In this document: positions 2 to 55,308 of the stretch, one piece after another
Layout: each line of letters starts with the position of its first letter
Numbering within the stretch: position 1 is the stretch's first letter
Source of the DNA: Candidatus Parcubacteria bacterium
GTDB taxonomy: Bacteria > Patescibacteriota > Minisyncoccia > UBA6257 > HR35
Length of the DNA: 64,000 nucleotides
Assembly (NCBI GenBank): GCA_026004495.1
Contig: BPJG01000001.1
Coordinates: forward strand, 70,470 to 134,469
Direction of reading: 5' to 3'
Program-made: the position numbers and the translations under genes
Notes under the pieces: model-generated
Seen by the model: only the letters and a program-made list of their open reading frames with translations
Database searches by the model: none
Told to the model about the DNA's origin: nothing

Positions 2-235
2 CTTCAAGGCTTAGCAGATGAAAGAAATGAATCAGTCAAAAAATTAATTAGTGAAGTAATTAGAAAATGTAAAGAAAAAGGAAAATATGTAGGAATTTGC
101 GGACAAGCACCAAGTGATTTTCCAGAAATTGTTGAATTATTGGTCAAAGAAGGAATTGAAAGTCTAAGTGTTAATAGCGATGTAGTGGTTAAAACGATTG
201 AAATGGTTAAAAAATTTGAAGATGAAAATAAATGA
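2..235 (+). CDS. 3' end of a PEP-utilizing enzyme (PEP synthase / pyruvate phosphate dikinase C-terminal domain), partial at the window edge
   Basis: Frame 2 translates to ...KGKYVGICGQAPSDFPEIVELLVKEGIESLSVNSDVV..., matching the conserved C-terminal PEP-binding domain (GICGQAPSD). It ends at TGA 233-235. Confidence 0.55.
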   Translation, partial: LQGLADERNESVKKLISEVIRKCKEKGKYVGICGQAPSDFPEIVELLVKEGIESLSVNSDVVVKTIEMVKKFEDENK

Positions 236-1502
236 TATAAAAGTAAATAAAATTTTAGACTCAAGAGGAGAATGGACAATTGATATTGAAATTGAAAGTG
301 AAGGAATAAAAGAAAAAGCCTCAATCCCTTCTGGAAAAAGTATTGGCTCTCATGAAGTTGTTTGTTTAGATTGTGAAAAAATTAAAAAGAACTTAGATGA
401 ATTGTTGAAAGATATAAAAAATAATGATTTTCAAAATCTAAAAGAATTAGATGAATTTTTAATTAAAAGAGCAGGGAAGAATAAAGAAAAATTAGGAGGT
501 AACTTTACTTTAGGAATTTCAATTAGTTTTGCTCGCGTTTTGGCTAAAAGCAAAAATTTGGAGTTGTTTGAATATTTAAAGAACGAATATGCTCTAATAA
601 TAGAAGATGAATTTAGACAAATACCAAGATTAATTTTAAATATTATTGGTGGTGGAGTACATTCTTTTAATAATTTAGATTTTCAGGAATATTGGTTGGT
701 GACGCAGAACTACGCTGAACTGACGCAGAACTACGCAGACAATAATAAAACGCAAACCAATGCGAACTATAAGCTAAATAACGCTAAATTTCAGGTGAAC
801 TTATCCGAAGGAGAAAATTATTATGAAACGCAAAGCGATAAGAACTTAATGCGACTCAAAGCAAATAAATATGAATTTCTTATTTTTTTAATCATAGAAA
901 TCATAAATATTATTAATCAACTTGAAAATAAACTACCTAAACCATTAGGAAGAAATGATGAAGGAGCATTTTGTACAAACTTTAGTGATGATTATGAACC
1001 ATTTTTATATTTAAAAGAAGTTAATAATTTTGAACTTGGAGCTGATATTGCCGCTAATCAAATAACAAAGGTAGTTAATTGGGAAAATGTTTATCGCAAA
1101 CTAAAAATTTTGGGTGTTAAATATTTAGAAGATCCTTATAGAGAAAATGAATTTGAAAAATTTGCTGAACTTCGAAAAGAAGGATTTAAAGTAATTGGCG
1201 ATGATTTAACAGTGACCAATATTGAAAGATTAAAAATTGCCTTAGATAAAAATTCTGTTGATGGTGTAATTGTTAAACCTAATCAAATTGGCACCATAAC
1301 TGAAGCATTTAATTTTGTTAAATTAGCCAAAACAAATAATTTATTTACAATTTTTTCTCATCGAAGTGGAGAAACTAATGATAATTGGATAATTGATTTA
1401 GGAATTGCTTTTGGAGCAGATTATTTTAAAATTGGTGTTCCTTTACAAGGCGAAAGAGTGGCAAAATATAATAGACTTTTAGAGATTTATGGTAAAATTT
1501 AA
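198..1502 (+). CDS. eno: Enolase (phosphopyruvate hydratase) carrying an in-frame repeat insertion around 700-790
   Basis: N-terminus INDIKVNKILDSRGEWTIDIEI...SIPSGKSIG. C-terminus SHRSGETND...GERVAKYNRLLEI. Internal NDEGAF matches enolase. The likely true start is ATG 222, which overlaps the upstream stop. Confidence 0.88.
   Translation: MKWLKNLKMKINDIKVNKILDSRGEWTIDIEIESEGIKEKASIPSGKSIGSHEVVCLDCEKIKKNLDELLKDIKNNDFQNLKELDEFLIKRAGKNKEKLGGNFTLGISISFARVLAKSKNLELFEYLKNEYALIIEDEFRQIPRLILNIIGGGVHSFNNLDFQEYWLVTQNYAELTQNYADNNKTQTNANYKLNNAKFQVNLSEGENYYETQSDKNLMRLKANKYEFLIFLIIEIINIINQLENKLPKPLGRNDEGAFCTNFSDDYEPFLYLKEVNNFELGADIAANQITKVVNWENVYRKLKILGVKYLEDPYRENEFEKFAELRKEGFKVIGDDLTVTNIERLKIALDKNSVDGVIVKPNQIGTITEAFNFVKLAKTNNLFTIFSHRSGETNDNWIIDLGIAFGADYFKIGVPLQGERVAKYNRLLEIYGKI
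700..790 (+). repeat. GC-rich dispersed repeat copy, in-frame inside eno (encodes TQNYAELTQNYADNNKTQTNANYKLNNAK)
   Basis: ACGCAGA-type motif repeated. The core 731-764 (CTACGCAGACAATAATAAAACGCAAACCAATGCG) matches copies at 1976-2010 and 2551-2585. Local GC is much higher than the surroundings. Confidence 0.7.
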
Positions 1503-1552
1503 TGATTTATATTAAAATTTAATTAAGGTCGAATTAAAAAAAATTTTAAAAA

Positions 1553-1951
1553 ATGACTTCAGATTATATTCTTTTACTTTCAAGAGTGATTTTAGGTCTT
1601 TATTTTTTATTTAGTGGTTTTGCTCATTTTAAAAATTTAAATATGATGTCGCAGTATGCTCAAAGTAAAAATGTGCCAGCTCCTAAATTGGCTGTTATTG
1701 TTACAGGTCTTTTACTTTTAGTTGGTGGTCTTTCAATTTTACTTGGTGCTTATATTCAAGTCGGGGTTTTAGCTTTAACAATTTTCTTTTTACCTGTTAG
1801 TTTTATGATGCATAATTTTTGGACTGTTCAAGATCCACAAATGAAGATGATGGAAATGATTAATTTTATGAAAAATATGGCTATCTGGGCAGGAGTTTTA
1901 GCTTTACTTTTTATCCCTCAGCCTTGGCCATTCAGTCTTAGTTTGTTCTAA
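1553..1951 (+). CDS. DoxX family membrane protein
   Basis: 132 aa with 4 TM helices. LGLYFLFSGFAHF and the overall pattern are typical of DoxX. Confidence 0.65.
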   Translation: MTSDYILLLSRVILGLYFLFSGFAHFKNLNMMSQYAQSKNVPAPKLAVIVTGLLLLVGGLSILLGAYIQVGVLALTIFFLPVSFMMHNFWTVQDPQMKMMEMINFMKNMAIWAGVLALLFIPQPWPFSLSLF

Positions 1952-1960
1952 TTTACGGTT

Positions 1961-2062
1961 ATAGACTAACGCAGACAATATTAAAACGCAAACTAATGCA
2001 AGCTGATGCGGCTAATGAAGGTATTCGCAACGGTTCGCGTGAAAGTTCGCATAGGTTCGCGA
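1961..2062. repeat. Intergenic copy of the GC-rich dispersed repeat (CTAACGCAGACAATATTAAAACGCAAACTAATGCA), followed by a GTTCGCG x3 tract
   Basis: Sequence identity of the core to copies at 731-764 and 2551-2585. Three GGTTCGCG repeats at 2032-2062. Confidence 0.7.
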
Positions 2063-2072
2063 CAAATAAAAA

Positions 2073-3941
2073 ATGAAGATATTAATTTTAGGTGGAGGAT
2101 TTGGAGGTACTTATACTTTAAAACATTTGCATAAGTTTTTTCATAATAAGAAGAAAGTAAAATTGGTATTGGTAAATAAAAAGAATTATTTTATTTTTAC
2201 GCCTTTGCTTCATGAAGTCGCTACTGGTGGAGTTTCAATCGATAATGCTTTAGAACCTATAAGAGAAATTATTAAATGTTGCGATTTTGATTTTATCCAT
2301 GGAGAAGTTGAAAAAATTGATTTAGAAAATAAAGTTGTTTATATAAATAAAGAAAGAGAAAATTATAATGTTGATTACGATTATTTAGTTATTGCTTTAG
2401 GTTCAAAAACAAATTATTATAATATTACAGGCGCTAAAGAATTTACCTTTTCTTTAAAAACAGTTGATGATGCCATAAGGCTGAAAAATAGATTTGTTCA
2501 TATGTTTGAATTAGCGAGTGTAGCGCAGACCTGCGCAGACTACACGCAGACTAACGCAGACAATATTAAGACGCAGACTGATGCGAACTACACGCAGGCT
2601 GATGCAGGCAATAATGTAGTGCAGACTAATGCAGAAAACAACGAGAATTTTCTTTATGAAGATTTAAGCTATAAAATTATAGGAATAGCTTATAAAATTA
2701 AAAAGAATTTAGGATTGGGACATAAAGAAAAAGTTTATACGAATTCCCTTGAACTTGAACTTAAAAAAGAAAATATCATTTATAAAAGAGAGGAAAAAAT
2801 CAGCGTGGTATATGATGGAAAAATAGTAGGAAACTATATACCAGATTTTGTAATAGAGGATAAAATTATTGTGGAATTAAAAACACTCCCCTTAATAGAT
2901 GAGAAGACAAAAAAGCAAATCTGGAATTATTTAAAGGGAACTAAATATAGACTTGCAATTTTGATTAATTTTGGCAAGAAAGATGTGGAAATATCTAGGA
3001 TAATTTATGATAAAGCAAGAAATTCTAATAGTCAGCAAGAGTCTGCGTCCAGTCAGAAGGTTGATAATAATGAAAGTCTGCAAAAGTCCGCGTCCAGTCT
3101 GCAAAAGTCTGAGTCTAATAAATATTTAACTTTTGTCATTGTCGGAGGTGGAGCAACTGGAGTTGAACTTGCTGGTGAAATGAGTGATTTGTTTTATAAA
3201 ACATTTAGTAAATTATATTCATCAGATTTAATTTCACAAGTTAAAATAATTCTAATCGAAAAAGGCAAAGAATTAATTCCTCAATTTTCTCCAAAATTAA
3301 GACAAAAAGCACTTGAAAGGTTAAAAAAATTAAAAGTTGATATTAGATTGGAAAGAGGAGTAATTGAAGTTGGTGAAGATTTTATTAAACTTGATGATGG
3401 TAATGTTATCGAAACAAAAACAGTTATTTGGGCAGCAGGAGTTGAAACTAATTTACCAGAAATTATTGGCAAGGTTGAAAAGGATAATAAAGGAAGATTA
3501 GTTGTAAATGAATATCTACAAGTAAAAAAGAAAATAGATATGTTAAGTCAGCAAGAATCTGCGTTAAGTCAGCAAGAGTCTGCGTACGATAATGTTTTTG
3601 CCATTGGTGATGTTTGTTGTTTTATTCAAGACCAAAAGCCTTTGCCACAATTAGCTCAAGTTGCAGTTAGACAAGTAAAAACAGTTTCTTTAAATATTAA
3701 AAATTCGATTGAAAATAAGACTTTACAAAAATTTGCTTACAAACATACTGGTGATTTAATTTCAGTTGGTAGATTTTATGCCCTAGGAGAAATTAAAGGA
3801 GTTGAATTTTCAGGTTTAATTAGTTGGTTTATTTGGAAAGGAGTTTATTTAAGCAAAATTATTTCTTTTCGAGATCAAATCAAAACATTTATTGATTGGC
3901 TTTTGAATTTATTTTTACCCAGAGATATTACTGAATTATAA
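2073..3941 (+). CDS. ndh: Type II NADH:quinone oxidoreductase (NDH-2). It is interrupted in-frame by a ~200-aa insertion (2519-3122) and a 14-aa repeat insertion (3542-3587)
   Basis: N-terminus MKILILGGGFGGTY...FTPLLHEVATGG. Second Rossmann motif LTFVIVGGGATGVELAGE. AIGDV near the C-terminus. At 622 aa it is about 200 aa longer than a typical ~420-aa NDH-2. Confidence 0.8.
   Translation: MKILILGGGFGGTYTLKHLHKFFHNKKKVKLVLVNKKNYFIFTPLLHEVATGGVSIDNALEPIREIIKCCDFDFIHGEVEKIDLENKVVYINKERENYNVDYDYLVIALGSKTNYYNITGAKEFTFSLKTVDDAIRLKNRFVHMFELASVAQTCADYTQTNADNIKTQTDANYTQADAGNNVVQTNAENNENFLYEDLSYKIIGIAYKIKKNLGLGHKEKVYTNSLELELKKENIIYKREEKISVVYDGKIVGNYIPDFVIEDKIIVELKTLPLIDEKTKKQIWNYLKGTKYRLAILINFGKKDVEISRIIYDKARNSNSQQESASSQKVDNNESLQKSASSLQKSESNKYLTFVIVGGGATGVELAGEMSDLFYKTFSKLYSSDLISQVKIILIEKGKELIPQFSPKLRQKALERLKKLKVDIRLERGVIEVGEDFIKLDDGNVIETKTVIWAAGVETNLPEIIGKVEKDNKGRLVVNEYLQVKKKIDMLSQQESALSQQESAYDNVFAIGDVCCFIQDQKPLPQLAQVAVRQVKTVSLNIKNSIENKTLQKFAYKHTGDLISVGRFYALGEIKGVEFSGLISWFIWKGVYLSKIISFRDQIKTFIDWLLNLFLPRDITEL
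2519..3122 (+). mobile_element. In-frame insertion module: left ACGCAGAC-type repeats (2519-2645), a GxxExxY / PD-(D/E)XK-like domain (about 2649-3020), then right inverted GTCTGCGT-type repeats (3031-3116)
   Basis: The domain sequence FLYEDLSYKIIGIAYKIKKNLGLGHKEKVYTNSLELELKK...IPDFVIEDKIIVELKTL...KQIWNYLKGTKYRLAILINFG matches the GxxExxY family. The flanks are reverse complements of each other (ACGCAGAC versus GTCTGCGT). The host NDH-2 resumes exactly in frame. Confidence 0.5.
3542..3587 (+). repeat. Tandem 21/22-bp repeat (GTTAAGTCAGCAAGARTCTGCG x2) inserted in-frame in ndh, encoding LSQQESALSQQESA
   Basis: Direct tandem duplication. It contains the TCTGCG(T) motif shared with the 3031-3116 repeats. 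Confidence 0.65.
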
Positions 3942-3949
3942 TTAAATTA

Positions 3950-5386
3950 ATGGAGCCTCTTTATCTATTTAACACCCTAAGTCGAAAAAAAGAAAAATTT
4001 AAACCTTTGAAAGATAAGATAGTAACGATGTATAATTGTGGACCGACTGTTTATGAAAGACCACATATTGGTAATTTAAGAGCCTATATTTTTGCTGATA
4101 CCCTAAGAAGAACGCTTGAATACAATAGCTATAAGGTCAAACAGATTATAAATATTACTGATGTTGGGCATTTAACTTCTGATGCTGATACTGGTGAAGA
4201 TAAAATTGAAAAAACTGCTCGAAAAAAAAGAAAAACTGCCTGGGAAATCTCTCACTATTTTGAAAAACTTTTTAAGGAAGATATTAAAAAATTAAATATT
4301 AAAAATCCTTTTAAGTTTCCTCGAGCAACTCAACATATAAAAGAAATAATTGAGCTTATAAAGATTCTAGAAAAAAAAGGCTATACTTACAAAATTTCTG
4401 ATGGTATCTATTTTGATACTTCTAAATTTAAAAATTATGGTGAATTAGCTGGCTTAAAGAAAAAAAAATTCATTGCCGGTGCTAGGGTTGAAATAAATCC
4501 TGAAAAAATAAATCCAACTGATTTTGCTTTGTGGAAATTCTCGCCTAAAGATATTAAAAGACAAATGGAATGGAAAAGTCCGTGGGGTATCGGTTTTCCT
4601 GGTTGGCATATTGAATGTTCAGCAATGTCAATGAAATATTTAGGTAAAACAATTGATATTCATACTGGGGGTATAGATCATATTAATATTCATCATACAA
4701 ATGAAATTGCTCAATCAGAAGCAGCAACTGGTAAAAAATTTGTTAACTATTGGCTTCATGTAAATTTTTTAAAAGTTGAAGGAGAAAAAATGTCAAAAAG
4801 TTTAGGAAATATTGTTACCCTAGAAGATATTGAGAAAAAAGGTTTTCAACCGCTTGCTTTCAAATATTTAGTTTTAACCTCCCATTATCGTTCAGAAATG
4901 AATTTCACTTGGCAAGCAATGGAATCAGCTCAAAAAGCATATAATTTAATTTTAGAAACAATCTCCAGTTTTAATCTTTCTATTAATTTGTATAAATCAC
5001 TATCTATCAACAGACAACTTTCAATTCTACATAGCTCTGCATCTAGGGAAATATTAAATATTATTAATGATGATCTTGATACTCCTCGATTAATTGCTAA
5101 ATTATGGGAAGTTTTAAGACTAAATGAAAATTTAAAATTTAAAAAAATTTTTGTTTTAAAAGCTGATAAAATTTTAGGATTGGGATTCAAAGAATTTTTA
5201 GTAAAACAAAAGTTACCAGCCAAAATTAAAAATAAAGTATTATTGAGAGAAAAGCTGAGAAAAGAAGGGAAATGGCAAGAAGCTGATAAGATTAGAGAAA
5301 AAATATTAAAAGCTGGTTATAAAATTGAAGATACTAAACAAGGCCCAATTATTAAAAAAGTCGTTATTAAAAAATTAATAAAATAA
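3950..5386 (+). CDS. cysS: Cysteinyl-tRNA synthetase
   Basis: YNCGPTVYERPHIGNLRAYIFADTLRR (HIGH region) and KMSKSLGN (KMSKS). Confidence 0.9.
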   Translation: MEPLYLFNTLSRKKEKFKPLKDKIVTMYNCGPTVYERPHIGNLRAYIFADTLRRTLEYNSYKVKQIINITDVGHLTSDADTGEDKIEKTARKKRKTAWEISHYFEKLFKEDIKKLNIKNPFKFPRATQHIKEIIELIKILEKKGYTYKISDGIYFDTSKFKNYGELAGLKKKKFIAGARVEINPEKINPTDFALWKFSPKDIKRQMEWKSPWGIGFPGWHIECSAMSMKYLGKTIDIHTGGIDHINIHHTNEIAQSEAATGKKFVNYWLHVNFLKVEGEKMSKSLGNIVTLEDIEKKGFQPLAFKYLVLTSHYRSEMNFTWQAMESAQKAYNLILETISSFNLSINLYKSLSINRQLSILHSSASREILNIINDDLDTPRLIAKLWEVLRLNENLKFKKIFVLKADKILGLGFKEFLVKQKLPAKIKNKVLLREKLRKEGKWQEADKIREKILKAGYKIEDTKQGPIIKKVVIKKLIK

Positions 5387-8231: not shown

Positions 8232-9650
8232 CTATTTAAATATTTTTGACCAATCAAAGTTCCACGGATCATCTTTTCTATCAGTAGCTATATCTTTATG
8301 ACCTAAAATGTATTTTATCTGATAGCGAGATTTAATATCATTAATTAATTCATTTAAAGCTTGATATTGTAATTCGTTAGGTGATTCATTTTTATGATAT
8401 ATTAACTCAATTCCTATTGAATATAAATTTACATTGGTTCTATTATCGGGCAATTTACTTTTACCAGCATGATAAGCAATTTTATCTTCAGATAATAATT
8501 TATATATGTTGCCCTGTCTATCAATTAAATAATGAGCTAAAACTTCATAATTTTTGTAAATATTAATAATTTTATTTACATTATAGTGATCTTTATCTAA
8601 TGAATTATAAGAAGAATGAATAATTATCGTGTCTATAAATCTTCGGTGATCATATTTAAATCCCCAATTTATATTTGCGGTTAAATTTTTTATTTTAATT
8701 TTACTATTTTCTTTAATTTCGCTCTTTACACTTTTTTCATTATTTTTATTAATAAATTTATTGATTTCTGAAATAAACTTAAGGGGATCAATAGAAATAT
8801 TATTAACTTTAATAGAAAAATGTAAATGGGGACCCAAAGAATAACCAGTATTACCTACCTCCCCAATTTTCTGACCTTTATTTACAATTTCATTTTCGTT
8901 AACAAAAAATTTATTTAAGTGCAGGTATAAAGAATAAATTCCTCCACCATGATCTATGATTATGGTTTTTCCATAATTAATTAAATCTTTTGCCAGGACA
9001 ACCTTACCATTATTAACTGCATAAATCAAATCTCCGATTTTACCATCTAAATCAACACCTAAATGTTGGACCTCATTTTTACCGCTTTTCCTTATATTCC
9101 CGTAATCTCCAACAATTATAATTTTATCTAATGGATAAATAAATTCTTCATTAAAATAAAGCTGAGTTGTAAATTTATTAACCTTATTTTCAATAATTTC
9201 ATTTTCATTTTTTAGATTATTAATTATATTAGGGATAGTGAATCCCTTTTTTTCTAATGAAGGAGTTGTTTTAAGCTGGGTTATGGGAAAAATTCTTTTT
9301 TTAATTCTAATTATCTTTTCAATTTTTTTACCATTATTAAATTCAATAGTTAATTTATATTTTCCTCCTTCTTCTTTGGGATCTATGCCTATAAAACTAA
9401 CGAATTCACCATTTTTTAAATTAACAAAGTTAATCTGATTATTTTTAAAATAAGAATTAGTTATCTTTAAACCATTATTAAGAACTAATTTAACCATCAT
9501 AACATCTCCAGAATAGAAATTTTCTTTATTAATTTCAAGAGAATAGTTTTGAGCAAAAGTTAAATTAAATAAAATAAATAAAAATAATATCACTAAGGTA
9601 ATTGTCCTTTTTAAAATAATTATTCCTTTAAACTTACTATAGCATTTCAT
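8232..9650 (-). CDS. Peptidoglycan hydrolase: M23 metallopeptidase domain plus an N-acetylmuramoyl-L-alanine amidase (Amidase_2) domain, with a signal anchor
   Basis: HLGVDLDG...GNTGYSLGPHLHF (M23). IIIHSS...AYHAG...SIGIELI..LGHKDI (Amidase_2). Confidence 0.78.
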   Translation of the reverse strand: MKCYSKFKGIIILKRTITLVILFLFILFNLTFAQNYSLEINKENFYSGDVMMVKLVLNNGLKITNSYFKNNQINFVNLKNGEFVSFIGIDPKEEGGKYKLTIEFNNGKKIEKIIRIKKRIFPITQLKTTPSLEKKGFTIPNIINNLKNENEIIENKVNKFTTQLYFNEEFIYPLDKIIIVGDYGNIRKSGKNEVQHLGVDLDGKIGDLIYAVNNGKVVLAKDLINYGKTIIIDHGGGIYSLYLHLNKFFVNENEIVNKGQKIGEVGNTGYSLGPHLHFSIKVNNISIDPLKFISEINKFINKNNEKSVKSEIKENSKIKIKNLTANINWGFKYDHRRFIDTIIIHSSYNSLDKDHYNVNKIINIYKNYEVLAHYLIDRQGNIYKLLSEDKIAYHAGKSKLPDNRTNVNLYSIGIELIYHKNESPNELQYQALNELINDIKSRYQIKYILGHKDIATDRKDDPWNFDWSKIFK

Positions 9651-9694: not shown

Positions 9695-10339
9695 TTAACG
9701 ACAAATTTTTTTAAAATATTCTTTTAATTCTTGTGGTATATTCTGGCATAATTTATAGCAATAAACCTTACCCTTAAATTCACTTAATTTTTTATCATAT
9801 TCAAATAAATCCAAAAACTTATTGTAGCGATAATAATTTACCCTACAAAAATCTTTACTGCTATTATAAGCAAAATAACTTGCTTGATAAATAGCCCCTT
9901 CTTCTGGTAATAACTTAATAAAAAATCCATATTTTCCACCTCCTCCTGTTCCCTGTGATAAAACTAATTTCTTAATTTCACCATTTTCAGTTTTAAAATT
10001 TAAAATTTCTACATTATTATAGATTTTTAAAATATTATTAAAAAAAGATTTTTTGGTTATAAGAATATAATTATCAATAGCAACCCCTCCAAATCCTAAG
10101 CTTACTAAAGCTTCTTTAATACCATCTCGGGTTAAATCAATTTCACTTTCTATTTTTAAATTATCTAAACCTTCTTCTGTTATTTTATTGACAATAATTA
10201 ATTTCCTAATTTTCGGGATTAATTTTTCATAAGGCAATTCAATTCTTATTATAATTATTAAATAAATAATAATAAAGATAATTAATAGAAAAAGTAATCT
10301 AAAAATATATTTAAATTTAATTTTATTAAATAGATTCAT
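9695..10339 (-). CDS. Hypothetical membrane-anchored protein
   Basis: ORF of 214 aa with an N-terminal TM segment and no recognisable domain. Confidence 0.35.
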   Translation of the reverse strand: MNLFNKIKFKYIFRLLFLLIIFIIIYLIIIIRIELPYEKLIPKIRKLIIVNKITEEGLDNLKIESEIDLTRDGIKEALVSLGFGGVAIDNYILITKKSFFNNILKIYNNVEILNFKTENGEIKKLVLSQGTGGGGKYGFFIKLLPEEGAIYQASYFAYNSSKDFCRVNYYRYNKFLDLFEYDKKLSEFKGKVYCYKLCQNIPQELKEYFKKICR

Positions 10340-10985
10340 AATATTATTATAATCTTCAACTTATAGTTTAAAATCAGAAATTAATTAACCAAAACTTAAT
10401 TTAAAATTATAATTACTAAAAATATGAATAGAAAAATTAAGATATATAAAAATAAAAAACAAGCTAAAGGAAGAATATTATTTTTTCAAATTAAAAAATA
10501 TGAAAATACTTATAATCTCTTAAAATTAATGAAAAAAATACATTTTAGTTAGACTAAAAAATATTAAATAAAATACCTTAAGGATTTATAATTTGCAAAA
10601 AAATGAATAACCGGGAGTAAATGATATTTATTATTTAGAAAATAATTTATTTAGGGTTATTGATAAAATAGATAAAAAAACATAAAAAATATAATTTACA
10701 TTATTCAGTTATACTCCCCATACTTTTAATCATCAACATTTTAGCTTTAAAAATTTTAAAATAATATTTATAATAAGTTATTTATAACTAACAAAAACCT
10801 AAAAGAATTAAATATAGAGACATTGTTTTTATTATGATGCTAGAATTTATAAAAAATAATCATTATATAGTAATAATATATAGTTTTAATTTATATAAAT
10901 ATTGGATATGTAAATATTAGAAAAATTAAAATAACAAATAACCTTATTTAAATAAATCTTAGATTTAATTTAAAATTTATTTAAA

Positions 10986-12674
10986 ATGATAGAATTGCCA
11001 TTTATATTCAAATTATCAATATTATTTTTAATCTCCTTTATTTTAGGTTTTTTATTTAATTTAATAAAACAACCTTTAATAATCGCCTATATTATATCTG
11101 GAATTATAGCCGGAAATTATTTAATTGATTCTTTAGAAACTAAAAATATTTTAAGCATATTTTCAGAAATCGGTGTAGCTTTAATGCTTTTTATTGTTGG
11201 CTTAGAGTTAAAACTAAAAGTTATTAAGGATATTGGAAAAAATGTTGCAATCATAGCTATCTTGCAAGAACTATCAGTAATTATTTTGGGTTTTGTGATA
11301 TCCTTAATTTTAGGTTTTAACCATATAGAATCTCTTTATATAGGAATTGCCCTTTCTTTTAGTAGTACAATTATTATTATTAAATTACTTTCTGATAAGG
11401 GCGATTTAGAAAAATTTTATGGTAAATTAGCTATTGGTTTTTTAATTATCCAAGATATAATATCAATAATTTTAATATTATTAATTCCATTTTTTTCCCT
11501 TAATAAAAATTTTATAAACCTAGAAAACAATTTATTAATTATTAGTTTTGTAATATTATTAATATTTTTTACGGTTCGTTATTTAATTCCTAAATTAGAA
11601 AATTTAATTACCAAAACAAATGAATTGCTATTTATTTTCTCATTCTCCTTTGTTTTATTATTATCTTCATTATTTAAATTAGTGGGAATAGGATTAGAAA
11701 TTGGAGCTTTGATAGCTGGACTAATATTAGCTAATTATCAATTTAGTTCAGAAATTAATTTTAAGTTGAGGCCAATAAAAAATTTTTTCTTAATAATATT
11801 TTTTATATATTTAGGTTTAAATATTAAATTTCCTCAAATAGAAAATGAATTGTTTAAAATCTTAACATTTTCCTTTTTTATTTTGATAATTCAACCAATA
11901 ATCAGTTTTTTCTTATTAAAATTACTTAAAATAGGTAATAGGCAAGCTTTTAAATTTAGTTTGATTTCGGCACAAATAAGTGAATTCTCTTTTATTATTA
12001 TCGGTCTTGGAAATAAATTAGGTCAAATAGAAAATAATTTATTCTCAACAATTTCTTTTATCGGAATTATAACTATATTTCTTTCAATTTATATGTTTTA
12101 TTATTCAGACAAAATATACAATTTAATTTTTAAAAAAATATTAAAAATAAAAGATAGGGTTAATATTGATGAAGAAATAAAAAATAAAAATTTTAATATA
12201 CTTCTTATTGGTTGTGATAGAACAGGTTATAGTTTCTTACTAAGTATTAAGGAAAATAAAGAAAAGATTTTAATAATAGAAAATAATTATCAAAAAGTTT
12301 TAGAATTAAAAAAAATAAATTATAATGTTATCTATGGTGATATAGATGAATTTGAATTGTTAGATGAAATAAATCTTAAGCAGTTTAAAATAATAATTTC
12401 TACAATACCTGATTTTGAAACAAATTTAATACTATTAAGAAGATATAAAAAAGACAATCCCAAAGGAATATTTATTTGTAATTCTAATAAATTTAAAGAT
12501 AATTTAGAATTATACAAAAATGGAGCAAGTTTTGTTAACTTACCCCATTCTTTGGGAGGAGAAAAAATAGCTGATTTAGTTAATAATTTTGGTTTTGAAA
12601 TAGATGAATATGAAGCTATTAAAAAAGAAAATTTTGAAAAGATATATAAAATAATTAATTATTTAAAAATTTAA
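10986..12674 (+). CDS. Monovalent cation:proton antiporter (CPA2, Kef-type) with a C-terminal RCK/TrkA-N domain
   Basis: About 12 TM helices, followed by NILLIGCDRTGYSFLL, a Rossmann-like RCK motif. Confidence 0.75.
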   Translation: MIELPFIFKLSILFLISFILGFLFNLIKQPLIIAYIISGIIAGNYLIDSLETKNILSIFSEIGVALMLFIVGLELKLKVIKDIGKNVAIIAILQELSVIILGFVISLILGFNHIESLYIGIALSFSSTIIIIKLLSDKGDLEKFYGKLAIGFLIIQDIISIILILLIPFFSLNKNFINLENNLLIISFVILLIFFTVRYLIPKLENLITKTNELLFIFSFSFVLLLSSLFKLVGIGLEIGALIAGLILANYQFSSEINFKLRPIKNFFLIIFFIYLGLNIKFPQIENELFKILTFSFFILIIQPIISFFLLKLLKIGNRQAFKFSLISAQISEFSFIIIGLGNKLGQIENNLFSTISFIGIITIFLSIYMFYYSDKIYNLIFKKILKIKDRVNIDEEIKNKNFNILLIGCDRTGYSFLLSIKENKEKILIIENNYQKVLELKKINYNVIYGDIDEFELLDEINLKQFKIIISTIPDFETNLILLRRYKKDNPKGIFICNSNKFKDNLELYKNGASFVNLPHSLGGEKIADLVNNFGFEIDEYEAIKKENFEKIYKIINYLKI

Positions 12675-50905: not shown

Positions 50906-50953
50906 TATTAAAAATAGATTATGGTATAATAATATAAAAATTGTAAATTTTCT

Positions 50954-51038
50954 GCCCGGGTGGCGGAATTGGAAGACGCGTATGACTCAAAATCATATGG
51001 GTGAAAACCTGTGTGGGTTCGAGTCCCACCCCGGGCAA
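50954..51038 (+). tRNA. tRNA-Leu (anticodon CAA), long variable arm, no encoded CCA
   Basis: Manual cloverleaf: acceptor GCCCGGG/CCCGGGC, anticodon loop CUCAAAA, T-arm GTGGG-TTCGAGT-CCCAC. Confidence 0.85.
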
Positions 51039-51091
51039 TTAAATTTTAATTTTTAAAATAACATTGATAAAATAAAAAATAGTTAATAAAA

Positions 51092-51164
51092 GCCCCCATA
51101 GCTCAATTGGTAGAGCAGCTGGCTCTTAACCAGAAGGCTGGAGGTTCAAATCCTCCTGGGGGCA
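51092..51164 (+). tRNA. tRNA-Lys (anticodon CUU)
   Basis: Acceptor GCCCCCA/TGGGGGC, D-arm GCTC-AATTGGTA-GAGC, anticodon loop CUCUUAA, T-arm GGAGG-TTCAAAT-CCTCC. Confidence 0.85.
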
Positions 51165-51182
51165 AAGTAGATTAAGAATAAA

Positions 51183-52190
51183 ATGGAAAATAAATTTAAA
51201 AATATAAAAAGACAATTAGAAAATATTATTAAAAAAAATCCCTACTTAGGTAGTCTTTATGATTATTTTCTTAATTTAATCTACAAAGAAAGAAGAAATA
51301 TAGAAGAAGCTCAAGATATAGCAAATGTCATTAGATATTTATTTAACCCTCTTGAAAGTCATATAAAAGATTTAAATATTATATTAGAAAATTTTAGTAG
51401 TCTACCATACTTCAACGAGCAAGAAAAATTAATTATAAATAAATTAAAAAATGATTTACAAATTATATATCCACCAACTAAAATCTTGAAATTTATTACT
51501 AATTTTTCTGAAAAAATTTATTTTCTTTTTAGAAAATATGAAGATGAAATAAATAAAATTAATCAAGAAACTATTCCTTGGAGTGAATTTTATCCAACTT
51601 TAAATAACTTGATAGACGATTATTTTAAAGATTTAGATAGTATAGTTAAAAATGAACTTCAAAAAGAAAGGCGGTGTATATATATCGTTTATAGGTTATT
51701 AAAAAATACAATTCAAGAAATAAAAAATTTATTTAATTCAAAAAATGCTGAAGTTAAAAATATTTTAAGACAACAAATAGAAGCAATAGAATTAGAATCA
51801 AACGATTATTTAACTTTAAACATTATTGAAAATAATTTTAAAAATAGAATTGATGATCTTTTAAAGGAGCCTATAAATTATTTAATTTTAGATAAAGCAT
51901 TAGAAAATGAAACTATTGGACCATCCCAAGAGCATCTTTTTAGTTTAATCAAAGAAGGTAAAGATTTAGAAATGGATCAAGAATATCTAGATAAGCTAAG
52001 AATTGAATCTAATATTGAAGAAAATTTAAGACAATTGAATGTTTCTTATATAATTGATAAAATAAAAGATGAATTCTTAATTATACAATCTTATTTTTGG
52101 TATGGCACGGATTTAGATACATTCAATGACATTACATATATAACATTAGATCAAAAATTAAGATTATTAAAAGAATTAATAGAAGAATAG
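51183..52190 (+). CDS. Hypothetical protein
   Basis: 335-aa ORF. Confidence 0.35.
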   Translation: MENKFKNIKRQLENIIKKNPYLGSLYDYFLNLIYKERRNIEEAQDIANVIRYLFNPLESHIKDLNIILENFSSLPYFNEQEKLIINKLKNDLQIIYPPTKILKFITNFSEKIYFLFRKYEDEINKINQETIPWSEFYPTLNNLIDDYFKDLDSIVKNELQKERRCIYIVYRLLKNTIQEIKNLFNSKNAEVKNILRQQIEAIELESNDYLTLNIIENNFKNRIDDLLKEPINYLILDKALENETIGPSQEHLFSLIKEGKDLEMDQEYLDKLRIESNIEENLRQLNVSYIIDKIKDEFLIIQSYFWYGTDLDTFNDITYITLDQKLRLLKELIEE

Positions 52191-52216
52191 AAAAACAATA
52201 ATTTATTTTAATTAAT

Positions 52217-53026
52217 TTATAAACCTAAAACTTTAATTTCTTCTATTATTTTTTTAATTTTATTGGTATCTATTTTTGTTTTCTGAGAAATATTTTCTAT
52301 ACTATCTCTTAGTAAATCATTTGTTAAAACATAATGATTTTCGATAAATTTCTTTATTATAAATTTATTGGCATTGAGAATTATAGTTACTGGATATAAA
52401 TTTTTATCTTCTATTAATCTTTCTAAAGATTCGTCTGGGGGGTAATGCCAGGCAGTTAATCTTATATTTCGACAATTAGCGAAATTAATTGCCTCGGCTG
52501 AAATTTGAGTATTGGTAACTAACCATGGAATCAAATAGGGATACTTTTCATTTATATCAATCCATCTACCATAAATATATAAAACATTTTTTAGGTCTGA
52601 TCTTATTTCAAAAGAATTGTGAAATTTACATTCAATTATATATTTTTTTTCTTCTTTAATAGCAACTATATCTATTTCGTAATTTAAACATTTACCTTCA
52701 ATAAATTCGTTAATTATGGTATCATAACCATATTCAGCCAAAATTTTAGCAAAATACTGCTCAAAGGGATAGCCCGTAGGTCCCAAATCAAAAATGGCTC
52801 TCTTTAAATTATAACGAAGTGCATAATAATGATTAATTTTTTTTAATTCTTTTATGGTCAATTTGAAAATATCAGAACTTTTAGATACTAAAGGTAATTT
52901 ATTATAGATTCTACGACAAATATTATTAGCAGCTGGATAATCAATCCCGATCCTGCTTAAACTATTACAAAATTTTTCTTCATTAAAAATTTCTTCTTCG
53001 CCAAATTTTTTAATTATTTTTTTCAT
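52217..53026 (-). CDS. ATP-cone domain fused to a PD-(D/E)XK (Mrr-like) restriction-endonuclease-like domain
   Basis: The N-terminus (GEEEIFNEEKFCNSLSRIGI) is ATP-cone-like. The core EIDIVAIKEEKKYIIECKF has a D...E.K nuclease motif. Confidence 0.55.
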   Translation of the reverse strand: MKKIIKKFGEEEIFNEEKFCNSLSRIGIDYPAANNICRRIYNKLPLVSKSSDIFKLTIKELKKINHYYALRYNLKRAIFDLGPTGYPFEQYFAKILAEYGYDTIINEFIEGKCLNYEIDIVAIKEEKKYIIECKFHNSFEIRSDLKNVLYIYGRWIDINEKYPYLIPWLVTNTQISAEAINFANCRNIRLTAWHYPPDESLERLIEDKNLYPVTIILNANKFIIKKFIENHYVLTNDLLRDSIENISQKTKIDTNKIKKIIEEIKVLGL

Positions 53027-53784
53027 TTTTTTTTAAAAATAAAAAACATATCGAAAATTTCTTTGAGCGATAAATTTCTTGGTCTTTTTAAAAGTAAATT
53101 TTTATCTTTAATTTTATATATTTCTTTTGAATAAAATCTTTTTAAATTATTGAGAACAGTTCTTTTATTATTAATAAAAAATCTTTTAAGAAACATTTCA
53201 AAATCTTCAACTTCTGAAATGAGAGGCTGTGAATAAAAAGAAAATTTAAGAGCTATTGAATCAACCTTGGGGGTAGGGAAGAAATATTTATTTTTGATTA
53301 CCATAATTTTTTTTATTTCAGTAAAATTTCTTATAAAACAGTGTAAAAAATTATTACCATTTTCACCTAAAATTTTTTGACCATATTCTTTCTGTAAAAC
53401 CAAAACAGCTATTTTAGGATGATTATCTTTATTAAATATTTTTCTTAAAATCTTGCCAGTAATAAAATAAGGTATATTACCTATGAGCAAAAAATCATTA
53501 TTAAATTTCTTTAAATTGCTTTTTAAAAAATCTTTATTAATTATTTTTACATTTTTATAGTTCTTAAATCTTTCTTCTAAAAATTTTGATAAATTTTTAT
53601 CAATTTCATAAACTATTAATTTTTTTGCTGATAATAAAAATTGAGTTAAATTACCACTACCACCTCCTATTTCAATAATTGTTTCGTTGTGGATAACTCC
53701 CAAGCTATTAGCTAAAAACATCAAAAATTTAGTATTTTTTAAAAAATATTGACCCAATGTTTTTTTTAACCTAAATCTTATCAT
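53023..53784 (-). CDS. rsmA: 16S rRNA (adenine1518/1519-N6)-dimethyltransferase
   Basis: LGQYFLKN... and IIEIGGGSGNLTQFL. Confidence 0.85.
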   Translation of the reverse strand: MIRFRLKKTLGQYFLKNTKFLMFLANSLGVIHNETIIEIGGGSGNLTQFLLSAKKLIVYEIDKNLSKFLEERFKNYKNVKIINKDFLKSNLKKFNNDFLLIGNIPYFITGKILRKIFNKDNHPKIAVLVLQKEYGQKILGENGNNFLHCFIRNFTEIKKIMVIKNKYFFPTPKVDSIALKFSFYSQPLISEVEDFEMFLKRFFINNKRTVLNNLKRFYSKEIYKIKDKNLLLKRPRNLSLKEIFDMFFIFKKK

Positions 53785-54144
53785 AAATTAATTATATGTT
53801 ATAATAGTATTTATCAGAAAATTTTAAATAAAATTAATAATATTTTAATTATAGGTAATTGTCGAAATTAAATTCTAAGAATAAAGAAAATTAGTAGGTT
53901 ACTAGTTTTTATTTTAATTTTAACAATCTATTTTACAATTAATTTTGATAAAGAATCATCTTTACCTGATGAAAATATAAGTTATTCGAGTAATAATTAT
54001 GAAAATTTTATTATAGATAGTAATTTTAACAACGATTTAATATCAATAGATAACCAATCTATTGAAATTAGTTCAGATATTGCTTATTTAGTTAATAGCA
54101 ATATAAATAATAATTATTTTATTGAAAATAAGAAAAAATTAGAA

Positions 54145-54759
54145 ATGTCAATTGCCGAAAATCTAGTCATTAATAATAATAAATATTTAAAGTATATGGT
54201 TAAAAAGGGAGATAATTTAGAAAAAATAGCTAAATCATTTGGTTTAAGCGTAAAAGAAATAAAAAATATTAACAATTTAAAAAATGATAAGATAATAGCA
54301 GGAAAAATATTATTAATACCATCAAACGTAAAAATAACGGCTAAAATTAATAATAATGAAAAAAAGTATAAAATTAAACCAGAATATGTATCAGCCCTAA
54401 CAGAAATTAATGGTTTATTAATACCAACAGATGGTATTAACCAAAAACATGTCCATTCCAACAATGGAGTAGATATTTCAACAGATTGTGGAATGCCAGT
54501 ATATTCAGCTGCAGATGGAATAGTTATTAAAGCCGAATCAAGCGGTTATAATGGTGGTTATGGAAATTATATACTTATCCAACACAGAAATTTTGAAACA
54601 TTATATGGTCATTTGTCAAGAGTTTTTGTAAATTCAGGAGATAATGTTTCTAAGGGAGAATTAATAGGATTAGTAGGCAATACAGGATATACAATTGGAT
54701 TAACAGGTTGCCATCTTCATTTTGAAACCCGTGGCTTAAAAAACCCTTTATCTAAATAA
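54145..54759 (+). CDS. LysM-domain M23 peptidase. The true start is probably upstream: an in-frame TM segment lies at 53872-54144 without a canonical start codon
   Basis: LysM YMVKKGDNLEKIAKSFGLSVKEIKNIN. M23 HSNNGVDI...GNTGYTIGLTGCHLHFE. Confidence 0.72.
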   Translation: MSIAENLVINNNKYLKYMVKKGDNLEKIAKSFGLSVKEIKNINNLKNDKIIAGKILLIPSNVKITAKINNNEKKYKIKPEYVSALTEINGLLIPTDGINQKHVHSNNGVDISTDCGMPVYSAADGIVIKAESSGYNGGYGNYILIQHRNFETLYGHLSRVFVNSGDNVSKGELIGLVGNTGYTIGLTGCHLHFETRGLKNPLSK

Positions 54760-54775
54760 TATAAAATAAATATTT

Positions 54776-54846
54776 TGCCCTCGCCAGGAATCGAACCTGG
54801 ATCTTAACCTCCGCAGGGTTACGTTTTTCCGTTAAACTACAAGGGC
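54776..54846 (-). tRNA. tRNA-Arg (anticodon GCG as read)
   Basis: The reverse complement folds as acceptor GCCCTTG/CGAGGGC, D-arm GTTT-AACGGAA-AAAC, anticodon stem TAACC/GGTTA with loop CUGCGGA, and T-arm CCAGG-TTCGATT-CCTGG. Confidence 0.7.
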
Positions 54847-55081
54847 TATTATTTTAAAATTAGAATTAAATTAATTATAAATTATCTCTTATAATCATAG
54901 AATTTTAACTAATTAAATTATAAATTTTTATAAATTTAAATTATAAATTAATTTTAGAATTAAATAGTTAAATATTTAAATATTTTTTATTTTTATTTTT
55001 TAATAATTTTAATTATAATTTAATTATATTTTAAAAAAATAATTAAAAATATTAATAAAAAATAATAAATTATCGAATAAT

Positions 55082-55152
55082 CGGGGTGTAGTATAGCGGC
55101 AGTACGCACCCTTGGGGTGGGTGTAGGCCGGGTTCAATTCCCGGCACCCCGA
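55082..55152 (+). tRNA. tRNA-Pro (anticodon GGG)
   Basis: Acceptor CGGGGTG/CACCCCG, anticodon stem CACCC/GGGTG with loop UUGGGGU, T-arm CCGGG-TTCAATT-CCCGG. Confidence 0.8.
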
Positions 55153-55308
55153 AAAATATTAGTAAAAAGATAAAATAGTAAATATATATAAAATATAATA
55201 AAAATATAAATATAAAATAAGATATTTTTATTAATTATTTTTTAGTTCGCAAAAGATATATTTTGCGAACTAAAAATTAAAGCTAAAATTAAATAAAATA
55301 TCCCTTGA

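What the first reader, a model, noticed from the sequence alone, without database searches (positions are those of the whole stretch)
3542..3587. Third in-frame repeat insertion in ndh: a tandem 21-bp unit of the same motif in opposite orientation
GTTAAGTCAGCAAGAATCTGCG followed by TTAAGTCAGCAAGAGTCTGCG encodes LSQQESALSQQESA just before the conserved AIGDV block of NDH-2. It shares the TCTGCGT motif (the reverse complement of ACGCAGA) with the right flank of the large insertion. This suggests the repeat family proliferates within the same gene, possibly as a target-site preference or a footprint of excision and reinsertion.
Basis: seen in the sequence. Interest (0 to 1): 0.5.

Follow-up and report, generated by a model that had tools for sequence, protein, structure and literature searches.

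The report
Solo arm of nuclease-linked heptamer repeat
The 2 x 21-bp repeat in the NADH dehydrogenase gene is real and inherited: it is one end-piece of a repeat element that elsewhere flanks a small nuclease gene and sits, translated and in frame, inside essential genes of these tiny bacteria.

Summary
Confirmed. Window 3543-3584 holds two head-to-tail 21-nt units with one mismatch, in frame in an NDH-2 gene of a 24% GC Parcubacteria MAG (KatS3mg094). With five junction codons (3528-3542) it replaces a single codon that 117 of 120 NDH-2 homologues have there.

It is not an artefact or a fresh local duplication. A relative assembled from at least five samples has the same two units. A third relative (P0004) carries a 138-nt hairpin element at the same codon.

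On the minus strand the repeat reads CGCAGAC-tct-TGCTGAC-ttaa-CGCAGAT-tct-TGCTGAC: four 7-nt cores spaced 10-11-10. That is the standard module of a dispersed family. In full form the family is [4 cores]-GxxExxY PD-(D/E)XK nuclease gene-[4 inverted cores]. One such cassette lies 520 nt upstream in the same gene. Others sit in frame in lepA, recG and a glycosyltransferase of other CPR bacteria.

Best reading: a solo right arm, probably left over from a hairpin element, translated as a flexible surface loop.

Same family, opposite orientation and local proliferation hold. But the insertion predates the upstream cassette, and excision and reinsertion is not shown.

I found no published description of this cassette architecture.

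The parts
3543..3584 (-). The finding: two 21-nt units, equal to one four-core module. On the minus strand it reads CGCAGAC tct TGCTGAC ttaa CGCAGAT tct TGCTGAC (spacing 10-11-10). On the + strand it is translated as LSQQESA LSQQESA.
3528..3542 (+). Junction codons AAG AAA ATA GAT ATG (KKIDM). They are part of the insertion relative to the empty site (HR35 has one codon, AAT). The junction is identical in P0002 (AAG AAA ATA GAT) and similar in P0004 (AAG AAA GTA AAT).
2073..3941 (+). Host gene: type II NADH dehydrogenase (NDH-2), 622 aa against about 405 aa in uninterrupted homologues.
2520..2640 (+). Left arm of the full cassette at ndh 'site 3': forward CGCAGAC cores (2524, 2534, 2545, 2555, 2572 and more), translated as AQTCADYTQTNADN...
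2643..3020 (+). GxxExxY / PDDEXK_3 nuclease domain, in frame with ndh. The family-invariant residues E29, Y32, D68, E78 and K80 are present. AF2 model pLDDT 95.4.
3030..3115 (-). Right arm of the cassette: reverse cores GTCAGCA/GTCTGCG..., translated as SQQESASSQK...SLQKSASSLQKSES. Its first 18 nt are identical to unit 2 of the finding.
1960..2065 (.). Intergenic (DoxX-ndh) copy: a forward array (1963-2004, 88% identical to 2548-2589) followed by a degenerate reverse GTTCGCG array (2033-2061). It has no significant fold.
703..774 (+). Forward array in frame inside the enolase gene (TQNYAELTQNYADNNKTQTNANY). It is the start of a roughly 55-aa insertion that splits the Enolase_C match.

Best explanation
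The 42-nt repeat is a solo, reverse-oriented terminal array (a 'right arm') of a dispersed repeat family.

The family's unit is a 7-nt core, CGCNGAC, repeated four times at 10-11-10 nt spacing. That is roughly one DNA helical turn per core. The 21-nt super-period equals 7 codons, so a module does not shift the reading frame.

The complete element is [forward array]-GxxExxY PD-(D/E)XK nuclease ORF-[reverse array]. Derivatives lacking the ORF occur as tight hairpins or as single arms.

The copy at 3528-3584 entered a turn just before the FAD-binding GD motif of NDH-2, in an ancestor of this genome and of its nearest relatives. Most likely it entered as a hairpin element like the one still present in P0004, and it later lost its left arm by an in-frame deletion. 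It is transcribed and translated with the host gene as a hydrophilic, probably disordered loop (LSQQESA x2). It is tolerated rather than useful. The two units are kept alike by occasional slippage or gene conversion.

Shown:
- It is an insertion relative to orthologues.
- It belongs to the family.
- It is inherited.
- The reading frame is preserved.
- The arrays are associated with GxxExxY genes.

Inferred:
- The hairpin-to-solo-arm history.
- That the nuclease recognises the heptamer arrays and mobilises or copies the elements.
- That the peptide is neutral for the enzyme.
For: (1) Insertion and inheritance.
- The site is empty in HR35. P0002 has the same 19-codon insertion in contigs from at least 5 samples.
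- P0004 has a 46-residue (138-nt) element at the same codon with a similar left junction.
- Only these 3 of 120 homologues are filled, and all are in one clade.

(2) Canonical module.
- Four cores at 10-11-10 spacing recur at window 703 and 2524, L001 378 and 3911, L008 9906, and in L014, L027, L051, L092, L124 and L143.

(3) It matches cassette right arms in register, spacers included.
- 18/18 nt with window 3030-3047.
- About 81% over 42 nt, by my own count, with the right arm of a cassette in an unrelated 47% GC MAG, L051.

(4) Array-nuclease association.
- tblastn with the window's domain finds GxxExxY homologues in 8 of the pattern-selected loci, and 7 of them lie next to an array.
- Two stand-alone GxxExxY genes chosen from a protein search are also flanked by arrays.
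- In-frame cassettes split LepA, RecG and a glycosyltransferase.

(5) A second cassette in L051 uses a different heptamer (ATTCGGA). This suggests each nuclease variant has its own cognate repeat.

(6) Translation.
- 31 of 37 arrays in CPR loci lie in read-through ORFs. They give stereotyped peptides: TQTxADx forward, S(L/Q)(R/Q)xSA reverse.

(7) Solo arms read in the reverse sense are rare. This one and its P0002 orthologue are the only ones seen. That fits derivation from a two-armed element.

(8) Folding.
- The P0004 element folds at -53 kcal/mol, z = -7.6. The window copy alone does not fold, z = -0.13.

(9) AF2 of the whole protein places residues 495-501 at pLDDT below 50, between confidently predicted strands.

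(10) All arrays in the 64-kb window lie within 2.9 kb around the single GxxExxY copy.
Against: - No target-site duplication or defined element ends could be identified.
- HR35 lies closer to the window than P0004 does in the NJ tree. A single ancestral insertion therefore requires a clean loss in HR35. The alternative is two independent insertions at the same codon.
- Mobilisation by the GxxExxY nuclease rests on association only. No activity, binding or cleavage data exist, and the literature lists the family's function as unknown.
- Solo forward arms are common, so single modules may insert on their own rather than being remnants.
- The full-length AF2 model is poor (mean pLDDT 61), so the 'surface loop' statement is soft.
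Confidence: 0.65

Rival explanations
1. A single four-core module inserted on its own, in reverse orientation, at this codon. It was never part of a hairpin or cassette. The P0004 hairpin is then either a separate insertion or a later addition of a left arm.
For: Many arrays in relatives are solo, for example L001 378 and 3911, L008 5082 and 9906, L014, L027 and L052. HR35, which groups with the window and P0002, has a clean empty site.
Against: Solo arms elsewhere are almost always read in the forward (TQTxAD) sense. P0004 and the window share the inserted junction codons AAG AAA RTA RAT and an alternating CTGCG/CAGCA/CTGCG right arm in register. Only one small clade of 120 homologues has anything at this codon.
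Confidence: 0.2
2. Intragenic copying from the cassette 520 nt upstream. In this reading the array at 3543-3584 was made by ectopic gene conversion or repair templated on the right arm at 3030-3050, or it is the footprint left when that cassette moved from site 4 to site 3.
For: There is an 18/18 exact match between 3030-3047 and 3567-3584. That 18-mer variant was found in array context nowhere else in JGI metagenome contigs except the orthologous P0002 site. The nuclease domain looks intact.
Against: P0002 has the site-4 array but no cassette at site 3, so the array does not depend on the present cassette. The direction of copying cannot be told; site 3's arm may derive from site 4.
Confidence: 0.1
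3. An ordinary coding minisatellite: a 21-bp stretch duplicated by replication slippage, unrelated to any mobile family. Alternatively, an assembly duplication artefact.
For: There are two nearly identical head-to-tail units. Both units differ in concert between the window (TTA) and P0002 (TCA), which hints at slippage or conversion within the array.
Against: The unit is not local sequence. The whole 57 nt is absent from orthologues, and the unit matches dispersed cassette arms in other genes and other phyla-level lineages. The same two-unit structure is assembled independently in at least 5 samples for P0002. No copy-number variant was found. At 42 nt it is far shorter than a sequencing read.
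Confidence: 0.04

Closest known systems
Rickettsia palindromic elements (RPEs) and other intragenic MITEs
   Same: Both are short dispersed repeats that form hairpins. Both are repeatedly inserted in frame into unrelated housekeeping genes, translated as extra peptide segments at positions compatible with protein fold, and variably present among relatives (review PMC10969869).
   Different: RPEs are single palindromes of about 150 bp with no known dedicated enzyme. Here the arms are arrays of a 7-nt core at helical spacing. The full form carries a PD-(D/E)XK nuclease ORF in frame with the host. The copy in question is a single arm with no hairpin. No sequence relationship was tested or is expected.
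REP/REPIN sequences with their RAYT genes (own knowledge: Nunvar 2010; Bertels and Rainey 2011)
   Same: In both, a small nuclease-type gene is flanked by inverted copies of the very repeat that is scattered, without the gene, through the genome. Each enzyme variant goes with its own repeat variant.
   Different: RAYTs are HUH/Y1 transposase-like enzymes. REPs are extragenic imperfect palindromes of 20-40 nt. Here the enzyme has a PD-(D/E)XK fold, the repeats are four-core arrays, and most CPR copies are inside ORFs.
Inteins and other homing-endonuclease elements
   Same: Both place an endonuclease-coding insert in frame next to highly conserved motifs of essential proteins: before GGGATGVE in NDH-2, before LIDTPGH in LepA, and between DEQH and SATPIPRT in RecG.
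   Different: Pfam finds no Hint or splicing domain in the insert, only PDDEXK_3. The insert is flanked by low-complexity repeat-encoded linkers and is presumably retained in the mature protein. The same arms occur in many different genes, which looks more like transposition than allele-specific homing.
Heptamer direct repeats: cyanobacterial STRRs and TAACTGA repeats of Beggiatoaceae, Cyanobacteria and Bacteroidetes
   Same: Both have a specific heptamer repeated in short arrays, a patchy distribution across distant phyla that suggests horizontal spread, and no known mechanism (PMC4679880).
   Different: Those repeats are contiguous heptamers, mostly intergenic and close to start codons. Here the cores are separated by 3-4 nt spacers (period about 10.5), occur as inverted arms, are linked to a nuclease gene and are mostly translated.

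Membership tests
CGCNGAC heptamer-array / GxxExxY cassette family (defined here) | 7-nt core CGCNGAC (reverse GTCNGCG) | tested here: met
   Minus strand of 3543-3584: CGCAGAC, TGCTGAC, CGCAGAT, TGCTGAC. These are 0-1 mismatches from CGCNGAC, with the same A/T alternation as other right arms.
CGCNGAC heptamer-array / GxxExxY cassette family (defined here) | Four cores at 10-11-10 nt spacing (21-nt super-period) | tested here: met
   The spacers are tct / ttaa / tct. The same layout occurs at window 703 and 2524, L001 378 and 3911, L008 9906, L051 2714 and 3134, and L124 1195 and 1258.
CGCNGAC heptamer-array / GxxExxY cassette family (defined here) | Direct adjacency to a GxxExxY (PDDEXK_3) ORF with an inverted partner arm | tested here: not met
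   This copy is a solo arm. The nearest GxxExxY ORF ends 520 nt upstream and has its own right arm. The element at the same codon in P0004 has both arms but no ORF.
CGCNGAC heptamer-array / GxxExxY cassette family (defined here) | Read through in frame, giving the S(L/Q)(R/Q)xSA heptad for reverse arms | tested here: met
   This copy gives LSQQESA x2. Compare SQRKSALSQRESA (L051), SLRQSASSLRQSA (L123) and FQRLSASSQRLSA (L124).
MITE / RPE-like in-frame palindromic element | Terminal inverted repeats or a stable hairpin | tested here: not met
   Window 3528-3590 folds at -8.7 kcal/mol, z = -0.13. The P0004 element at the same codon does fold (-53.1 kcal/mol, z = -7.55).
MITE / RPE-like in-frame palindromic element | Multi-copy, dispersed, and variably present at orthologous sites | tested here: met
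   Arrays occur in enolase, an intergenic spacer and ndh in the window, and in several other genes of relatives. Presence and absence vary across four ndh sites among orthologues.
MITE / RPE-like in-frame palindromic element | Target-site duplication | tested here: inconclusive
   Filled and empty sites were compared at ndh sites 1-4. The flanks are AT-rich and diverged, and no consistent duplication was seen.
Coding minisatellite / VNTR | Copy-number variation between strains or populations | tested here: not met
   Both lineages that carry it have exactly two units. The P0002 protein cluster has one member sequence, found on 12 contigs. The metagenome scan found no 1- or 3-unit version. Reads were not available.
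Intein / homing-endonuclease element | Hint (protein-splicing) domain bounding the insert | tested here: not met
   Pfam and NCBIfam on the whole ORF report only PDDEXK_3/GxxExxY inside the insert, and nothing at 3528-3584. The finding itself encodes 19 residues.
Known RNA families (Rfam 15) | Match to any covariance model | tested here: not met
   Only two sub-threshold chance hits were found in 500-4000, and none is at the finding.

The most novel reading that the evidence does not exclude
The heptamer arrays are the cis-acting ends of a so far undescribed class of mobile element, driven by the small GxxExxY PD-(D/E)XK nuclease. This class colonises conserved sites of essential genes in CPR bacteria in frame. 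It would occupy the niche of inteins without any splicing domain, surviving because its 21-nt-periodic arms encode flexible linkers. Solo arms such as 3543-3584 would be its decay or excision footprints. The same element type, with three cores at 10-10 spacing and mostly intergenic, pervades Desulfobacterota.
Probability: 0.4. Interest if true: 0.8.

Novelty: new variant of a known kind. Interest (0 to 1): 0.6.

Why it matters
On its own the 42-nt repeat is a small, probably neutral relic. It matters for three reasons.

1. It is the simplest visible trace of an element family that inserts a complete nuclease domain, or just its repeat arms, into the reading frames of core enzymes (NDH-2, enolase, LepA, RecG) in bacteria with extremely reduced genomes.

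2. The family gives a testable function to a large protein family of unknown function (PF13366/TIGR04256): binding or cutting arrays of a heptamer spaced one helical turn apart.

3. It offers a concrete explanation for the many unexplained low-complexity insertions and length differences in CPR proteins. That affects annotation, alignment-based phylogeny and structure prediction for these lineages.

Tried and rejected
- Exact-protein look-up of the window's NDH-2 found nothing. The protein search later identified the source MAG.
- A literature search on the raw motifs CGCAGAC/GTCTGCG returned only primer noise. Searches on GxxExxY, PF13366, CPR in-frame insertions and Patescibacteria endonuclease repeats found no description of this architecture. 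PDDEXK_3 is listed as function unknown.
- The metagenome scan for the exact 18-mer gave 15 loci, of which 14 are isolated chance matches in unrelated DNA. So there is no evidence of copy-number variants.
- Rfam gave no family. blastn of the cassette against phage genomes gave no match.
- A sequence search of the PDB with the nuclease domain gave nothing significant. Foldseek gives only generic PD-(D/E)XK neighbours (Cas4, lambda exonuclease family, Hjc, tRNA-splicing endonuclease; TM about 0.5). The fold therefore does not discriminate between resolvase-like, restriction-like or RNA-endonuclease-like action.
- The search for target-site duplications was inconclusive.
- RNA-level removal of the inserts (a BHB-intron-like idea, prompted by the fold's kinship to splicing endonuclease) was considered and rejected as the main reading. 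31 of 37 arrays keep the host frame open with stereotyped peptides, which makes sense only if they are translated.
- The other GC-rich peaks in the window that I checked are tRNA genes, not repeat arrays.
Full report
**What is there**

The window comes from a 24% GC Parcubacteria MAG. The 622-aa ORF 2073..3941 is 100% identical to 'KatS3mg094_069', which lies on a 634-kb contig. The ORF is a type II NADH dehydrogenase (Pyr_redox_2, NDH2_C) carrying an internal PDDEXK_3 / GxxExxY domain.

At 3543-3584 there are two head-to-tail 21-nt units, TTAAGTCAGCAAGA(A/G)TCTGCG, 20/21 identical. TRF scores them 81. They encode LSQQESA twice, just upstream of YDNVFAIGD. The 18-mer AGTCAGCAAGAGTCTGCG recurs exactly at 3030-3047, in the right flank of the large insertion, with none expected by chance.

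**It is an insertion, and it is inherited**

- I aligned 120 NDH-2 homologues. In 117 of them a single residue lies between EYLQVK and Y(D/E/N)NVF. Only P0001 (the window), P0002 and P0004 have more.
- At the DNA level, 'bacterium HR35' has GTA AAA AAT TAT at this point.
- The window has GTA AAA AAG AAA ATA GAT ATG + 2 x 21 nt + TAC. Nineteen codons replace one.
- P0002 is 90% identical at nucleotide level in the C-terminal half of ndh. It has the same structure with TCA instead of TTA in both units.
- P0004 comes from GCA_026004515.1, where the gene order DoxX-ndh-cysS is the same as in the window. It has a 138-nt (46-codon) element at the same codon that starts with similar junction codons, AAG AAA GTA AAT.
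- P0002 was assembled identically in contigs from at least five samples. An assembly artefact is therefore very unlikely. No 1- or 3-unit version turned up in the protein clusters or in JGI metagenome contigs.

**What the repeat is**

Read on the minus strand, the 42 nt are CGCAGAC tct TGCTGAC ttaa CGCAGAT tct TGCTGAC. That is four 7-nt cores at 10-11-10 nt spacing. The same layout recurs in several places:

- in the window at 703 (inside enolase) and 2524 (left flank of the nuclease domain);
- in relatives, in ndh at other positions and in unrelated genes (L001 378 and 3911; L008 9906; L006 has similar but less regular arrays at 9398 and 9835).

The 21-nt super-period equals seven codons, which is why the arrays are frame-neutral. 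So the '21-bp tandem duplication' is one standard module of a dispersed family, not a fresh duplication of local sequence.

The two units are, however, more alike within each genome than between genomes (TTA/TTA against TCA/TCA). This hints at occasional slippage or conversion inside the array. With 42 nt the signal is not statistically strong.

**The family in full**

In the window the forward array (2520-2640) and a reverse array (3030-3115) bracket an intact GxxExxY domain. The family-invariant residues E29, Y32, D68, E78 and K80 are all present. The AF2 model has pLDDT 95.4 and a generic PD-(D/E)XK fold.

They fall into two main groups:

- **CPR lineages.** Saccharibacteria, Pacebacteria, Zambryskiibacteria and unnamed MAGs have the four-core 10-11-10 form.
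- **Desulfobacterota.** These have three cores at 10-10 spacing, often as inverted pairs 100-500 nt apart.

A third group of hits, in high-GC Actinobacteria with uniform 11-11 or long 10-10 runs, looks like unrelated tandem repeats.

tblastn with the window's nuclease domain hit eight of these loci, and seven of the hits lie next to an array. Two stand-alone GxxExxY genes picked from a protein search are also flanked by the arrays.

In CPR genomes the whole cassette sits in frame inside housekeeping genes, next to conserved motifs:

- LepA, before LIDTPGH (L123);
- RecG, between DEQH and SATPIPRT (L124);
- a glycosyltransferase with two cassettes (L051);
- NDH-2, before VGGGATGVE (the window).

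The cassette right arm in L051 is GTCAGCGtaaGTCTGCGttaaGTCAGCGagaGTCAGCG. It aligns in register with the finding at about 81% identity over 42 nt, by my own count, although the two organisms differ by 23 points in GC content.

L051's other cassette uses a different heptamer (ATTCGGA). The same kind of 'FGxNSG' insertion is seen in other NDH-2 homologues. This suggests that each nuclease variant has its own cognate repeat.

**Are the arrays translated?**

In the CPR loci examined, 31 of 37 arrays lie in ORFs that read straight through them. The peptides are stereotyped: TQTxADx for forward arms and S(L/Q)(R/Q)xSA for reverse arms. That pattern only makes sense if they are translated. It argues against removal at the RNA level.

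The full-length AF2 model is weak overall (mean pLDDT 61). It does place residues 495-501 of the finding below pLDDT 50, without regular secondary structure, between confidently predicted strands. Sequence matches to solved NDH-2 structures were found, but none was examined at this position.

**History of this copy**

- Hairpin-type elements fold very strongly: the P0004 site-4 element at -53 kcal/mol (z = -7.6), and the L059 and L071 palindromes at z = -8.6 and -7.1. The window's copy alone does not fold (z = -0.13).
- Solo arms in other genes are nearly always read in the forward sense. This one and its P0002 orthologue are the only reverse-sense solo arms I saw.
- The junction codons are similar, and the right arm aligns in register with the right arm of the P0004 hairpin.

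Together these observations favour one ancestral two-armed insertion that later lost its left arm in the window/P0002 lineage.

The weak point is HR35. It groups with the window and P0002 in an NJ tree yet has a clean empty site. The history therefore needs either a precise loss or a second independent insertion. No target-site duplications were recognisable.

Local proliferation is supported. All arrays in the 64 kb lie within 2.9 kb around the single GxxExxY copy. The forward arms in enolase, the spacer and ndh share 83-88% identity over 42 nt, spacers included. The exact 18-mer variant was seen in array context only at ndh sites 3 and 4 of this small clade.

However, P0002 carries the site-4 array without any cassette at site 3. 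The array is therefore not a recent by-product of the present cassette, and the direction of any copying between the two sites is open. 'Footprint of excision and reinsertion' remains possible but unproven.

**Comparison with known systems**

The behaviour is closest to Rickettsia palindromic elements and other intragenic MITEs, which are in-frame, translated and variably present (PMC10969869). The gene-plus-cognate-repeat architecture resembles REP/RAYT (own knowledge). The choice of conserved sites in essential proteins resembles inteins, but no Hint domain is present. Heptamer arrays with a patchy cross-phylum distribution recall the TAACTGA repeats (PMC4679880).

None of these matches on defining features. 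I found no paper describing heptamer-array-flanked GxxExxY cassettes or their in-frame insertion in CPR genes. The library searched is incomplete, so this is absence of evidence only.

**Verdict**

The finding itself is a small, probably neutral relic. It is nonetheless a bona fide member of an apparently undescribed variant of selfish in-frame repeat elements, linked to a nuclease family of unknown function.

- Interest: 0.6.
- Novelty: new variant of a known kind.
- The mobilisation mechanism (nuclease recognition of the arrays) is inferred, not shown.

Noticed in passing
window 2520-3115 (ndh site 3): A complete cassette: forward CGCAGAC array, an intact GxxExxY/PDDEXK_3 nuclease domain in frame with NDH-2, then a reverse array. 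It adds about 200 residues just before the NADH-binding GGGATGVE motif.
   Followed up: yes
window 703-870 (enolase ORF 198..1502): A forward four-core array followed by about 35 further inserted codons, in frame inside enolase. It splits the Enolase_C match, which resumes only at residue 295. The downstream part may be a decayed reverse arm. Orthologues were not compared.
   Followed up: partly
window 1960-2065 (DoxX-ndh spacer): An intergenic copy with a forward array, 88% identical to 2548-2589, then a degenerate GTTCGCG reverse array. It has no significant fold (z = -0.05). L006 has a comparable repeat-rich spacer at 4850-4990.
   Followed up: partly
L051 1900-2420, and NDH-2 homologues P0019, P0037, P0040, P0057 and P0064 (alignment A1): A second cassette family with a different heptamer (ATTCGGA / TCCGAAT; peptides FGxNSD / PNxxPN) and its own GxxExxY variant (35% identical to the window's nuclease domain). 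The same repeat type fills ndh site 3 in other lineages.
   Followed up: partly
L053 2416-2653, L067 2088-2254, L009 225-376, L077 1386-1910 and about 10 more Desulfobacterota loci: Three-core CGCAGAC arrays at 10-10 spacing form inverted pairs. They enclose 100-250 nt that contain a GCGAAGC mini-hairpin or, in L077, a GxxExxY gene. The form looks like a non-autonomous version, abundant in Desulfobacterales MAGs.
   Followed up: no
alignment A1 /: NDH-2 sites 1 (after HKFFH), 2 (after VVY) and 3 (after HMFE): NDH-2 of this Parcubacteria clade ranges from 404 to 622 aa, because up to four loops carry repeat-encoded insertions in different combinations. Among the 120 homologues, 35 have an insertion at site 1 and 14 at site 2.
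   Followed up: partly
L008 (HR35) 9906-9943 and 10666-11013: A forward four-core array lies inside a 429-aa ORF. About 700 nt downstream is a 23S_rRNA_IVP / bAvd-like four-helix-bundle gene, another small gene family known for sitting in intervening sequences. Any link to the arrays was not examined.
   Followed up: no
L001 378-415 and 1047-1088 (P0002 ndh): In the closest relative, a solo forward arm (site 2) and the solo reverse arm (site 4) bracket about 640 nt of ndh coding sequence. This gives a cassette-like arrangement with host sequence as 'cargo'. Its significance is unknown.
   Followed up: no
window 50953-55153: Four of the other GC-rich peaks in the window are tRNA genes (Leu-CAA, Lys-CTT, Arg-GCG, Pro-GGG), not repeat arrays.
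   Followed up: yes
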